A stretch of 64,000 nt of DNA, from assembly GCF_016903815.1 (NCBI RefSeq), contig NZ_CP069973.1; one strand, written 5' to 3'. Within the stretch, counting starts at the first letter, position 1; every line of letters starts with the position of its first letter. The position numbers are program-made. Shown in pieces: positions 18,801-21,800 of the stretch. Source of the DNA: Escherichia coli (GTDB taxonomy: Bacteria; Pseudomonadota; Gammaproteobacteria; Enterobacterales; Enterobacteriaceae).

Positions 18801-21800
18801 TGTACCGTACAGGCCTGCGGCTTACGCGATAACATGGATGAGTTGAAAAAAGCGGGCGTTGATGTGCTGGGTATCAGCACCGATAAACCCGAAAAACTCT
18901 CCCGTTTTGCGGAAAAAGAGCTGCTTAACTTTACGCTCCTGTCTGATGAGGACCACCAGGTGTGCGAACAATTCGGCGTCTGGGGTGAAAAGTCCTTCAT
19001 GGGCAAAACCTACGATGGTATTCATCGCATCAGCTTCCTGATTGACGCTGATGGCAAAATCGAACATGTCTTTGACGATTTCAAAACCAGCAATCACCAC
19101 GACGTTGTGCTGAACTGGCTGAAAGAACACGCCTGATTACTTTGCTCCATTCCGTGCTGGCTGCGCTTGCGGTCAGCACACCTCACTTCTCGTGATCAAG
19201 ATCACATTCTCGCTTTCCCCTGCGACACGGGTGTCGAATTCATTTTTTGCTGAACGTTAATGACCATCATTTTTGTACCGTTCAGAATACAGTTAATTCA
19301 TAACTTATTGAATACATTAAATTAATCAGACTGGCATCCTTTATGCAATATGAAATGCAATGTTTCATATCATTTTCAAGGAGCCGACATGAACCGCTTT
19401 GTGGTGGCCGAACCACTGTGGTGTACAGGATGTAATACCTGTCTCGCTGCCTGTTCGGACGTGCATAAAACGCAAGGTTTACAGCAACACCCGCGCCTGG
19501 CCCTGGCGAAGACGTCAACACTCACTGCCCCTGTCGTGTGTCATCACTGTGAGGAAGCCCCTTGCCTGCAGGTCTGCCCGGTCAATGCCATCTCCCAGAG
19601 GGATGATGCGATCCAACTCAACGAAAGCCTTTGTATTGGTTGCAAGCTTTGCGCCGTGGTCTGCCCATTTGGTGCAATCAGCGCTTCAGGAAGCCGTCCG
19701 GTGAATGCCCCGGCGCAATATGTTTTTCAGGCTGATGGCTCACTCAAAGACGGCGAAGAAAACGCGCCGACCCAACATGCTTTGCTGCGCTGGGAACCGG
19801 GTGTCCAGACCGTCGCGGTGAAATGCGACCTGTGTGATTTCTTGCCAGAAGGTCCGGCCTGCGTTCGCGCTTGCCCGAATCAGGCGTTACGGCTGATCAC
19901 CGACGATAGCCTGCAACGTCAGATGAAAGAAAAACAGCGCCTTGCCGCAAGCTGGTTTGCCAATGGCGGGGAGGATCCCCTTTCCCTCACTCAGGAGCAA
20001 CGCTAATGGATGCCCTGCAATTATTAACCTGGTCGCTGATCCTCTATCTGTTTGCCAGTCTGGCTTCGCTGTTTTTACTCGGTCTGGACAGACTGGCTAT
20101 TAAGCTTTCCGGCATCACATCGCTGGTGGGTGGCGTGATTGGCATCATCAGCGGAATTACGCAATTACATGCAGGCGTAACTTTAGTCGCCCGTTTTGCC
20201 ACGCCTTTTAACTTTGCCGATTTAACCCTGCGAATGGATAGCCTCTCGGCATTTATGGTGCTGGTTATCTCCTTGCTGGTGGTGGTTTGTTCGCTCTATT
20301 CATTGACTTATATGCGCGAATACGAGGGCAAAGGCGCGGCGGCGATGGGCTTCTTTATGAATCTTTTCATCGCATCGATGGTTGCCCTGCTGGTGATGGA
20401 CAACGCTTTTTGGTTCATCGTGCTGTTTGAAATGATGTCGCTGTCTTCCTGGTTTCTGGTCATTGCCAGGCAGGATAAAACGTCAATCAACGCTGGCATG
20501 CTCTACTTTTTTATCGCCCACGCCGGATCGGTACTGATTATGATCGCCTTCTTGCTGATGGGGCGCGAAAGCGGCAGCCTCGATTTTGCCAGTTTCCGCA
20601 CGCTTTCACTTTCTCCGGGGCTGGCGTCGGCGGTGTTCCTGATGGCCTTCTTTGGTTTTGGCGCGAAAGCCGGGATGATGCCGTTGCACAGCTGGTTGCC
20701 ACGCGCTCACCCTGCCGCACCATCGCACGCTTCGGCGTTGATGTCTGGCGTAATGGTCAAAATCGGTATTTTCGGCATCCTGAAAGTAGCGATGGACCTG
20801 CTGGCGCAAACGGGTTTGCCGCTGTGGTGGGGCATTCTGGTGATGGCGATCGGCGCAATCTCCGCGCTCCTGGGCGTGCTGTATGCGCTGGCGGAACAGG
20901 ATATCAAACGGCTGCTGGCCTGGAGTACCGTCGAAAACGTCGGCATTATTTTGCTGGCGGTCGGTGTGGCGATGGTCGGTCTGTCACTGCACGACCCGCT
21001 GCTCACCGTTGTTGGACTGCTCGGCGCGCTGTTTCATCTGCTCAACCATGCGCTGTTCAAAGGGCTGCTGTTTCTCGGCGCGGGTGCGATTATTTCGCGT
21101 TTGCATACCCACGACATGGAAAAAATGGGGGCACTGGCAAAACGGATGCCGTGGACAGCCGCAGCATGCCTGATTGGTTGCCTCGCGATATCAGCCATTC
21201 CTCCGCTGAATGGTTTTATCAGCGAATGGTACACCTGGCAGTCGCTGTTCTCACTAAGTCGTGTGGAAGCCGTAGCGCTACAACTTGCGGGTCCTATTGC
21301 TATGGTGATGCTGGCAGTCACTGGTGGGCTGGCAGTAATGTGCTTCGTCAAAATGTACGGTATTACTTTCTGTGGAGCGCCGCGCAGTACACACGCTGAA
21401 GAGGCACAGGAAGTGCCAAATACGATGATCGTCGCCATGCTACTGCTCGCGGCACTCTGCGTATTCATTGCGCTTAGTGCCAGTTGGCTGGCACCGAAGA
21501 TAATGCACATTGCCCATGCGTTTACCAATACCCCTCCCGTCACTGTCGCCAGCGGAATAGCACTTGTACCCGGCACGTTTCATACACGGGTCACTCCCTC
21601 ATTACTGTTGCTGTTACTACTGGCGATGCCTTTGCTGCCTGGCCTTTACTGGCTATGGTGTCGTTCGCGCCGCGCAGCGTTTCGTCGCACAGGAGATGCC
21701 TGGGCATGCGGCTACGGCTGGGAAAATGCGATGGCCCCGTCAGGCAATGGCGTGATGCAGCCGCTGCGTGTGGTCTTTTGTGCGCTATTTCGTCTACGAC

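What the first reader, a model, noticed from the sequence alone, without database searches (positions are those of the whole stretch)
19192..19347. hyf promoter: sigma-54 -24/-12 element with an upstream perfect palindrome at enhancer distance
TGGCATCCTTTATGCA (19332-19347) fits the sigma-54 consensus, and 140 bp upstream lies GTGATCAAGATCAC flanked by TTCTCG direct repeats. The spacing is typical for a bacterial enhancer-binding protein site (HyfR or FhlA), but I cannot confirm from memory that this matches a described UAS.
Basis: partly seen in the sequence, partly recalled or inferred. Interest (0 to 1): 0.38.

Follow-up and report, generated by a model that had tools for sequence, protein, structure and literature searches.

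The report
Known CRP site upstream of hyfA promoter
The upstream "palindrome" in front of the E. coli hydrogenase-4 (hyf) operon is the already catalogued binding site for the sugar-sensing regulator CRP, not the enhancer site of HyfR/FhlA, and the sigma-54 promoter beside it is also already known, so the finding is real but ordinary.

Summary
The window is an E. coli chromosome, and the finding lies in the bcp-hyfA spacer.

- **Sigma-54 promoter:** TGGCATCCTTTATGCA (19332-19347) is the published hyfA promoter. It was a sigma-54 ChIP-seq site in Bonocora 2015 and the top RpoN SELEX peak in Shimada 2021. It is conserved in hyfA loci of many genera.
- **Palindrome:** CGTGATCAAGATCACA (19191-19206) is not the HyfR/FhlA enhancer site. 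A RegulonDB-derived table lists this exact sequence as a CRP activator site centred at -160.5 of hyfA. It is also the motif under a CRP ChIP-seq peak in ETEC and was recovered by CRP SELEX. A CRP matrix built from 106 other ChIP sites scores it 18.7 bits, the best in the 64 kb. Citrobacter and Kosakonia carry strong CRP sites at the same position.
- **Likely enhancer site:** This is the neighbouring CGACAC-GG-GTGTCG (19223-19236). It lies about 103 bp upstream of the -24 GG in E. coli, Citrobacter, Kosakonia and Atlantibacter. Similar CGACAC-type motifs occur upstream of the -24 in most sigma-54 hyf loci and at hyc/hyp/hydN.
- **TTCTCG repeats:** They are not conserved.

Verdict: already known, low interest.

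The parts
19154..19179 (+). Likely bcp terminator hairpin (11-bp stem, 4-nt loop), not followed by a T-run
   Evidence: I2. Citrobacter and Kosakonia have a GC-rich hairpin followed by a T-run at the same place after bcp.
19191..19206 (.). CRP-cAMP binding site CGTGATCAAGATCACA, centred at 19198.5, which is -160.5 from the hyfA start.
   Evidence: The RegulonDB-derived table lists this sequence as a CRP activator site at -160.5. It is the CRP ChIP-seq motif in ETEC H10407 and was recovered by CRP SELEX-chip in K-12. It scores 18.74 bits on a CRP matrix, rank 4 of 106 and the best in the window. Orthologous strong CRP sites occur in Citrobacter and Kosakonia.
19187..19212 (+). TTCTCG direct repeats flanking the CRP site (19187-19192 and 19207-19212), probably chance
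   Evidence: They are not conserved in other genera, and both copies are mutated in E. coli strain 121.
19223..19238 (.). Probable FhlA/HyfR upstream activating sequence CGACAC-GG-GTGTCG(AA), centred about -129.5 from the start and -103.5 from the -24 GG
   Evidence: CGACAC, TG, CG and A are invariant in alignment A1. A CGACAC-NNNT-GNCG motif lies at -101.5 to -103.5 from the GG in E. coli, Citrobacter, Kosakonia and Atlantibacter, and similar motifs occur in most sigma-54 hyf loci. K-12 hyc/hyp and hydN carry similar TGTCG/CGACA clusters. The assignment is inferred; no footprint was read.
19261..19276 (.). Conserved 16-mer TGACCATCAYTTTTGT, factor unknown, centred about -90.5
   Evidence: It is invariant except for one Y across three genera and unique in the window.
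19301..19313 (-). IHF-like element TAACTTATTGAAT (reverse of WATCAANNNNTTR, one mismatch), centred about -52
   Evidence: AA and TGA are conserved in A1. Citrobacter NCU1 has the perfect form TAACTAATTGATT. The consensus is recalled from established knowledge; binding was not tested.
19332..19347 (+). Sigma-54 -24/-12 promoter of hyfA (GG at 19333-19334, GC at 19345-19346)
   Evidence: Sigma-54 ChIP-seq site OS23 in class C, which I take to mean previously confirmed. It gave the highest RpoN holoenzyme SELEX peak in the run with NtrC, and 92% without it. TGGCA/TGC is invariant across the three genera, and a -24/-12 element is present upstream of hyfA in 29 of 43 complete loci.
19359..19359 (+). 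Inferred hyfA transcription start, 30 nt before the ATG
   Evidence: Back-calculated from RegulonDB's -160.5 for the CRP site centre at 19198.5. It agrees with my recollection of the Skibinski 2002 abstract, which places the primer-extension start 30 bp upstream of hyfA.
19378..19391 (+). Shine-Dalgarno AAGGAG (19378-19383) and hyfA ATG (19389-19391)

Best explanation
The spacer is the regulatory region of the sigma-54-dependent hyfA promoter. Reading from bcp towards hyfA it contains:

- a CGACAC/GTGTCG element of the FhlA/HyfR type (about -130);
- an unassigned conserved 16-mer (about -90);
- an IHF-like element (about -52);
- the -24/-12 promoter.

CRP-cAMP binds the palindrome and acts as a co-activator, which places hyf under catabolite control. 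The ATPase activator HyfR (or FhlA) binds the adjacent CGACAC element and contacts promoter-bound sigma-54 RNA polymerase by DNA looping. CRP most likely helps through architecture, either by bending the DNA or by stabilising the activator. Its centre is 31 bp from the activator site centre, about three helical turns, so the two lie on the same face of the helix.

Shown: CRP binding at this sequence, sigma-54 binding at the promoter, and the activator annotation. Inferred: which element the enhancer-binding protein uses, and how CRP helps.
For: **CRP identity**
- The RegulonDB-derived list gives 'hyfABCDEFGHIJR-focB activator -160.5 ...TCTCGTGATCAAGATCACATTC...'.
- The CRP ChIP-seq peak in ETEC H10407 carries the motif CGTGATCAAGATCACA assigned to hyfA.
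- CRP SELEX-chip recovered the bcp/hyfA spacer, and hyfA is listed among known CRP targets.
- A CRP matrix built from 106 other ChIP sites scores the site 18.74 of a possible 21.64 bits. That is rank 4 of 106 and the only hit at or above that score in 64 kb.
- At the same distance from the hyfA ATG (-199 to -179), Citrobacter amalonaticus has TGTGATCGCAATCACA (18.6 bits), three Citrobacter sp. have TGTGACTAATATCACA (16.9) and Kosakonia has TTTGACCGCGATCACA (15.7).

**Promoter**
-.

**Enhancer site elsewhere**
- CGACAC...G.CG lies at -101.5 to -103.5 from the -24 GG in four genera. This includes Atlantibacter, which has no CRP site and no bcp-type coding sequence in the 330 nt upstream. Related CGACAC-TAAT-GACG motifs occur in Morganella, Providencia, Dickeya, Sodalis and others.
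- The HyfR and FhlA recognition helices are nearly identical, so an FhlA-like motif is expected.

**After loss of hyf**
- In hyf-less E. coli, 19 nt covering most of the CRP site are missing and the CGACAC element has five substitutions. This fits the loss of a hyf-specific constraint.
Against: - The published FhlA matrix scores the palindrome 9.6 bits, higher than the CGACAC element at 5.6 bits. However, that matrix cross-hits CRP sites in general: 27 of 106 score 8 bits or more and 10 of 106 score 9.6 or more. The palindrome also misses the matrix's strong positions C4 and G11.
- No HyfR or FhlA footprint could be read, because the primary papers are not held.
- The centre of the E. coli CGACAC element (GGGT) departs from the A/T-rich centre seen in other genera.
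- The ChIP-seq data come from strain H10407, not from this strain, although the 16-mer is identical.
- CRP-dependence of hyf expression (Self et al. 2004) rests on my memory plus the RegulonDB 'activator' label.
Confidence: 0.9

Rival explanations
1. The palindrome is the upstream activating sequence bound by HyfR or FhlA.
For: It lies 134.5 bp upstream of the -24 GG, a typical enhancer distance. The FhlA matrix scores it 9.6 bits, the best hit in the spacer.
Against: - The FhlA matrix cross-hits CRP sites generally, and the strong matrix positions C4 and G11 are not matched.
- The letters conserved across genera are those of the CRP consensus.
- The element is absent from Atlantibacter, Morganella, Providencia, Dickeya and other hyf loci that still have sigma-54 promoters and CGACAC-type motifs.
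- It is catalogued and ChIP-mapped as a CRP site.
Confidence: 0.05
2. The palindrome is an FNR site (TTGAT-N4-ATCAA) that confers anaerobic control.
For: gTGAT-CAAG-ATCAc matches 8 of the 10 FNR core positions. Myers 2013 lists hyfA among loci with a predicted FNR site and prior evidence of FNR regulation.
Against: The same paper classes the hyfA site as silent, with no FNR ChIP-seq peak. The discriminating base is G (GTGA, the CRP type) rather than T (TTGA, the FNR type), and Citrobacter has TGTGA on both halves. The G/T discrimination rule is established knowledge and was not tested here. I could not confirm that the predicted FNR site is this palindrome.
Confidence: 0.03
3. The palindrome is a chance inverted repeat, or part of the bcp terminator or 3' end, with no role at hyf.
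For: The spacer holds a second 6-bp-arm inverted repeat besides this one. The palindrome lies only 56 bp after the bcp stop codon.
Against: A 6-bp stem with a 2-nt loop and no T-run is not a terminator, and the bcp hairpin is at 19154-19179. The site is conserved at the same position in three genera with CRP-consensus letters. CRP binding is published.
Confidence: 0.02

Closest known systems
RegulonDB/EcoCyc CRP activator site of hyfABCDEFGHIJR-focB at -160.5
   Same: It is the identical 16-mer CGTGATCAAGATCACA with identical flanks over the 22 capitalised bases. The same sequence lies under the CRP ChIP-seq peak in ETEC H10407.
   Different: Nothing of substance. This strain differs from K-12 only at flanking SNPs such as 19173, 19179 and 19241.
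hyfA sigma-54 promoter (Skibinski et al. 2002; Bonocora et al. 2015, site OS23)
   Same: The -24/-12 sequence is the same, TGGCATCCTTTATGCA.
   Different: The base before TGG is C here and A in K-12.
FhlA upstream activating sequences of hyc/hyp, hydN and fdhF (formate regulon)
   Same: The element at 19223-19238 shares the CGACA/TGTCG core and an upstream position relative to the sigma-54 promoter. HyfR has a near-identical recognition helix to FhlA.
   Different: The E. coli hyf element is a single CGACAC-GG-GTGTCG with a G-rich centre and scores only 5.6 bits on the published FhlA matrix.
fdhF upstream region
   Same: The order of elements is the same: a ChIP-mapped CRP site (CGTGATGGCTGTCACG), then a stretch with a CGACA core and FhlA-matrix hits, then the sigma-54 promoter.
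   Different: The distance from the CRP centre to the -24 GG is 112.5 bp at fdhF and 134.5 bp at hyfA. I found no statement on whether CRP regulates fdhF.

Membership tests
CRP (cAMP receptor protein) binding site | Match to the 16-bp core TGTGA-N6-TCACA | tested here: met
   There is 1 mismatch to the core. The site scores 18.74 of 21.64 bits on a matrix built from 106 independent ChIP-seq sites, rank 4 of 106 and the best in 64 kb.
CRP (cAMP receptor protein) binding site | Occupied by CRP in vivo or in vitro | not testable with these tools
   Literature only. The ChIP-seq peak motif in ETEC H10407 is identical, and K-12 SELEX-chip recovered the bcp/hyfA spacer.
CRP (cAMP receptor protein) binding site | Consensus letters kept at the orthologous position in related species | tested here: met
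   Citrobacter (4 genomes) and Kosakonia (2 genomes) score 15.7-18.6 bits at -199 to -179 from the ATG, against -198 to -183 in E. coli.
CRP (cAMP receptor protein) binding site | Target promoter activity depends on CRP-cAMP | not testable with these tools
   RegulonDB labels the site 'activator'. Self et al. 2004 is recalled from memory and could not be read.
Sigma-54 (-24/-12) promoter | GG and GC dinucleotides 10 bp apart within TGGCAY-N5-TTGCW | tested here: met
   TGGCAT-CCTTT-ATGCA is at 19332-19347.
Sigma-54 (-24/-12) promoter | Conserved upstream of orthologous genes | tested here: met
   TGGCA and TGC are invariant in alignment A1. A -24/-12 element is found upstream of hyfA in 29 of 43 complete loci.
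Sigma-54 (-24/-12) promoter | Bound by sigma-54 holoenzyme, with the transcription start just downstream | not testable with these tools
   Literature only: ChIP-seq site OS23 and the SELEX top peak. The start at 19359 is inferred from RegulonDB numbering.
   The palindrome scores 9.6 bits but mismatches C4 and G11. The matrix gives 9.6 bits or more to 10 of 106 bona fide CRP sites.
   No such palindrome occurs in Atlantibacter, Morganella, Providencia, Dickeya, Sodalis or Pectobacterium. A CGACAC-type motif appears among the top matrix hits in most of these loci.
   The primary papers are not held.
FNR site | TTGAT-N4-ATCAA with T at the discriminating position, and FNR occupancy | tested here: not met
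   The sequence reads GTGAT...ATCAC, with G rather than T. Myers 2013 reports no FNR ChIP-seq peak at hyfA.
Intrinsic terminator | GC-rich stem with a loop of at least 3 nt, followed by a T-run | tested here: not met
   The scan does not report it. The arms leave a 2-nt loop and no T-run follows.

The most novel reading that the evidence does not exclude
The CRP site may be one part of a conserved four-element enhancer: CRP, then an FhlA/HyfR site, then the unassigned 16-mer TGACCATCAYTTTTGT, then an IHF-like element. The 16-mer would bind a factor not yet described. The CRP-then-activator-site order is shared with fdhF. That would make CRP a general architectural co-activator of sigma-54 formate-regulon promoters. 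Separately, the G-rich centre of the E. coli activator site might contribute to hyf being a 'silent' operon.
Probability: 0.2. Interest if true: 0.35.

Novelty: already known. Interest (0 to 1): 0.1.

Why it matters
It matters little as a discovery. Both elements are in RegulonDB and in published ChIP-seq and SELEX data.

The useful outcome is a corrected reading of the hyf control region. Catabolite control by CRP acts from -160.5. The enhancer-binding protein most likely uses the neighbouring CGACAC element. A well-conserved 16-mer at about -90 has no assigned factor.

CRP activating a sigma-54 promoter from far upstream is uncommon. Its conservation in three genera, and the similar layout at fdhF, could interest people working on hydrogenase-4 expression.

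Tried and rejected
- **Primary papers:** Skibinski 2002 (DOI and PMC135417), Self 2004 (PMC305750) and Benoit 2020 (PMC7167206) are not held. No published HyfR or FhlA footprint could be compared.
- **FhlA matrix scan:** I rejected it as evidence after showing that the matrix cross-hits CRP sites.
- **Terminator or RNA reading:** The terminator scan flags only the second palindrome, at 19223-19236. That hairpin is not conserved as a hairpin in other genera, where the sequence is CGACACTAATGCCG. Rfam finds nothing relevant.
- **TTCTCG repeats as a scar or target-site duplication:** Not conserved. The 19-nt gap in hyf-less strains lies between TCAC repeats, not TTCTCG.
- **Left edge of the hyf deletion at about 19186:** One search suggested this, but the true junction is the GCTGAA repeat at 19250-19255.
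- **The 16-mer:** By eye I compared it with IHF, FNR, Fur, NtrC, TyrR and Cra consensus sequences and with a sigma-70 -35/-10 promoter. None was convincing or conserved.
- **Literature on hyf and CRP or catabolite repression:** Two searches gave nothing beyond the datasets cited.
- **Collection scan:** The genome-contig scan returned no Escherichia or Shigella loci. Within-genus footprinting therefore used five E. coli genomes from the E. coli genome collection.
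Full report
**Where the finding lies.** The window is an E. coli chromosome with the gene order bamC-dapA-gcvR-bcp-hyfABCDEFGHIJR-focB-yfgO-bepA. The finding sits in the 252-bp spacer between the bcp stop codon (19136) and the hyfA ATG (19389).

**Checking the observation.**
- TGGCATCCTTTATGCA is at 19332-19347.
- GTGATCAAGATCAC is at 19192-19205.
- TTCTCG is at 19187-19192 and 19207-19212.

The palindrome is not perfect. It has 6-bp arms around a non-symmetric AA. Neither motif is statistically remarkable on its own. TGGCA-N7-TGCW occurs once in the window against 2.06 expected. The spacer holds a second 6-bp-arm inverted repeat and several 6-nt palindromes.

**The sigma-54 promoter is real and already known.**
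- Bonocora et al. 2015 list 'ATGGCATCCTTTATGCA' upstream of hyfA as sigma-54 ChIP-seq site OS23, in class C, which I take to mean a previously confirmed promoter.
- Shimada et al. 2021 found the bcp/hyfA spacer at 92% of the top RpoN-holoenzyme SELEX peak, and as the top peak in the run with NtrC.
- In 45 hyfA loci fetched from other species, a -24/-12 element lies 53-98 bp before the ATG in most Enterobacterales.
- TGGCA and TGC are invariant across E. coli, Citrobacter and Kosakonia.

**The palindrome is a CRP site.** Extended by one base on each side it reads CGTGATCAAGATCACA, which has one mismatch to TGTGA-N6-TCACA. Three published datasets name it:
- A RegulonDB-derived table in the supplement of Shimada et al. 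[quoted passage not shown]
- The same paper's SELEX-chip table gives the reverse complement of this 16-mer for the bcp/hyfA spacer. Its Table 1 lists hyfA among known CRP targets recovered by SELEX.
- Haycocks et al. 2015 list CGTGATCAAGATCACA as the motif under a high-confidence CRP ChIP-seq peak assigned to hyfA in ETEC H10407.

I built a CRP matrix from the other 106 sites in that ChIP-seq table. The hyf site scores 18.74 of a possible 21.64 bits. That places it fourth of 106, and nothing else in the 64-kb window scores as high.

The value -160.5 for a site centred at 19198.5 puts the transcription start at 19359. That is 30 nt before the ATG. It agrees with my recollection of the Skibinski 2002 abstract.

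**Phylogenetic footprinting.** In Citrobacter amalonaticus, three other Citrobacter species and two Kosakonia species, hyfA also follows bcp. The aligned spacers show five conserved blocks:
- the CRP letters TGA...ATCACA (19193-19195 and 19201-19206);
- CGACAC..., TG, CG and A (19223-19238);
- a 16-mer TGACCATCAYTTTTGT (19261-19276);
- AA....TGA within an IHF-like TAACTTATTGAAT (19301-19313);
- the -24/-12 element.

The orthologous CRP sites are TGTGATCGCAATCACA (18.6 bits), TGTGACTAATATCACA (16.9 bits) and TTTGACCGCGATCACA (15.7 bits). All lie at -199 to -179 from the ATG, against -198 to -183 in E. coli. The bases that are kept are the CRP consensus bases. The central six vary freely, as expected for CRP. 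The TTCTCG repeats are not conserved, and E. coli strain 121 carries a SNP in each copy.

**Where the enhancer-binding protein most likely binds.** Hyf loci outside the bcp-linked group have no CRP-like site. This applies to Atlantibacter, Morganella, Providencia, Dickeya, Sodalis, Pectobacterium and others. Most of them do carry CGACA/TGTCG-type motifs 60-135 bp upstream of the -24 GG.
- The 14-mer CGACAC-NNNT-GNCG lies at -101.5 to -103.5 from the GG in E. coli (CGACACGGGTGTCG), Citrobacter (CGACACTAATGCCG), Kosakonia quasisacchari (CGGCACAAGTGTCG on the opposite strand) and Atlantibacter (CGACACAAATGCCG).
- Morganella and Providencia have CGACACTAATGACG.
- The K-12 hyc/hyp and hydN upstream regions show similar clusters.
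- HyfR is 51% identical to FhlA, and the recognition helices are nearly identical: KRTTLLSRMQRLGI in HyfR and KRTTLLSRMKRLGI in FhlA. An FhlA-type site is therefore expected.

This is an inference. No footprint could be read, because Skibinski 2002 and Self 2004 are not held.

The published 13-site FhlA matrix (TGWCRAWRATGWCA) scores the palindrome 9.6 bits, the best hit in the spacer. The CGACAC element scores only 5.6 bits. However, the matrix shares TGA...T.ACA with the CRP consensus and cross-hits CRP sites in general. Of 106 ChIP-mapped CRP sites, 27 score 8 bits or more and 10 score 9.6 or more. In the window as a whole, hits of 9 bits or more occur at 0.81 per kb. The palindrome also misses the matrix's strongest positions, C4 and G11. 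The score is therefore not evidence for FhlA binding. Dual use of the site cannot be formally excluded.

**Other readings.**
- *FNR site:* The palindrome matches 8 of 10 FNR core positions. The discriminating base is G (the CRP type), and Myers et al. 2013 found no FNR ChIP-seq peak at hyfA.
- *Terminator:* This is excluded by the 2-nt loop and the lack of a T-run. The bcp hairpin is at 19154-19179.
- *Known RNA families:* Rfam finds nothing relevant.

**Population data.** Of 5424 complete E. coli genomes with a match, 4297 keep the whole spacer. In those, a 54-nt segment spanning the CRP site and the activator site is identical in 3388 and has one or two differences in 897. A representative of the 12 most divergent genomes (90-95% identity) has CGTGACCAAGATCACA, a CRP-tolerated change also seen in Citrobacter, and CAACAC in place of CGACAC.

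The other 1127 genomes, ST131 among them, lack hyf. In these, bcp is followed directly by yfgO. Alignments place the 13.8-kb deletion between GCTGAA repeats at 19250-19255 and 33047-33052. The same genomes lack 19 nt covering most of the CRP site. They also carry five substitutions in the activator-site remnant. This fits decay of hyf-specific control elements after the operon was lost.

**Mechanism.**
- *Shown by others:* CRP binds this sequence, sigma-54 holoenzyme binds the promoter, and RegulonDB labels the site an activator.
- *From memory:* Self et al. 2004 reported that hyf expression needs CRP-cAMP.
- *Inferred:* HyfR/FhlA binds at about -130 and reaches the promoter by looping, helped by the IHF-like element at about -52. 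CRP, 31 bp further upstream and on the same helical face, helps by bending the DNA or by stabilising the activator.

fdhF shows the same order of elements. A ChIP-mapped CRP site lies 112.5 bp upstream of its -24 GG, followed by its FhlA-type motifs.

**Verdict.** The promoter interpretation is right, and the assignment of the palindrome to an enhancer-binding protein is not supported. Both elements are already catalogued, so novelty is nil and interest is low. What remains unexplained is the conserved 16-mer at 19261-19276 and the unusual G-rich centre of the E. coli activator site.

Noticed in passing
window 19261-19276: The 16-mer TGACCATCAYTTTTGT is the best-conserved block of the bcp-hyfA spacer across E. 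coli, Citrobacter and Kosakonia. It is unique in the window and matches no regulator consensus I could recall. In E. coli it sits between the arms of an imperfect 24-nt inverted repeat, 19236-19259 and 19276-19299.
   Followed up: partly
It is the probable FhlA/HyfR site. Its centre is GGGT in E. coli, whereas other hyf loci have TAAT, AAAT or TTAT. This could relate to the poor native expression of E. coli hyf.
   Followed up: partly
window 19250-19255 and 33047-33052; L001 3001-3097, L055, L056: About 21% of complete E. coli genomes (1127 of 5424, including ST131) lack the whole hyf-focB cluster. The deletion lies between GCTGAA direct repeats. The remnant spacer has also lost 19 nt of the CRP site and carries a degenerate activator site.
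   Followed up: yes
L005 537-552 (K-12 fdhF upstream): fdhF has a ChIP-seq-mapped CRP site, CGTGATGGCTGTCACG, just upstream of its FhlA-type motifs and 112.5 bp from its -24 GG. The order CRP, activator site, sigma-54 promoter is the same as at hyfA.
   Followed up: partly
window 19154-19179: An 11-bp-stem hairpin follows bcp and is probably its terminator, but it lacks a T-run. Citrobacter and Kosakonia have a hairpin with a T-run at the same place.
   Followed up: partly
window 3664-3679, 37470-37485, 52421-52436: Other CRP-matrix hits occur in the window. TGTGAGCCATGACACA and TTTGATCTCGCTCACA are identical to the 16-mer motifs reported under the ETEC CRP ChIP-seq peaks at aegA/narQ and xseA/guaB. 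GGTGATCGCCATCACG (14.3 bits) was not looked into.
   Followed up: no
window 19343-19370: Around the inferred transcription start there is a direct repeat ATGCAAT (19343-19349 and 19355-19361). There is also an 8-bp inverted repeat ATATGAAA/TTTCATAT (19348-19355 and 19363-19370). Their role is unknown.
   Followed up: no
Genome-contig collection: The HyfA scan returned Citrobacter, Kosakonia, Atlantibacter and more distant genera, but no Escherichia or Shigella locus.
   Followed up: no
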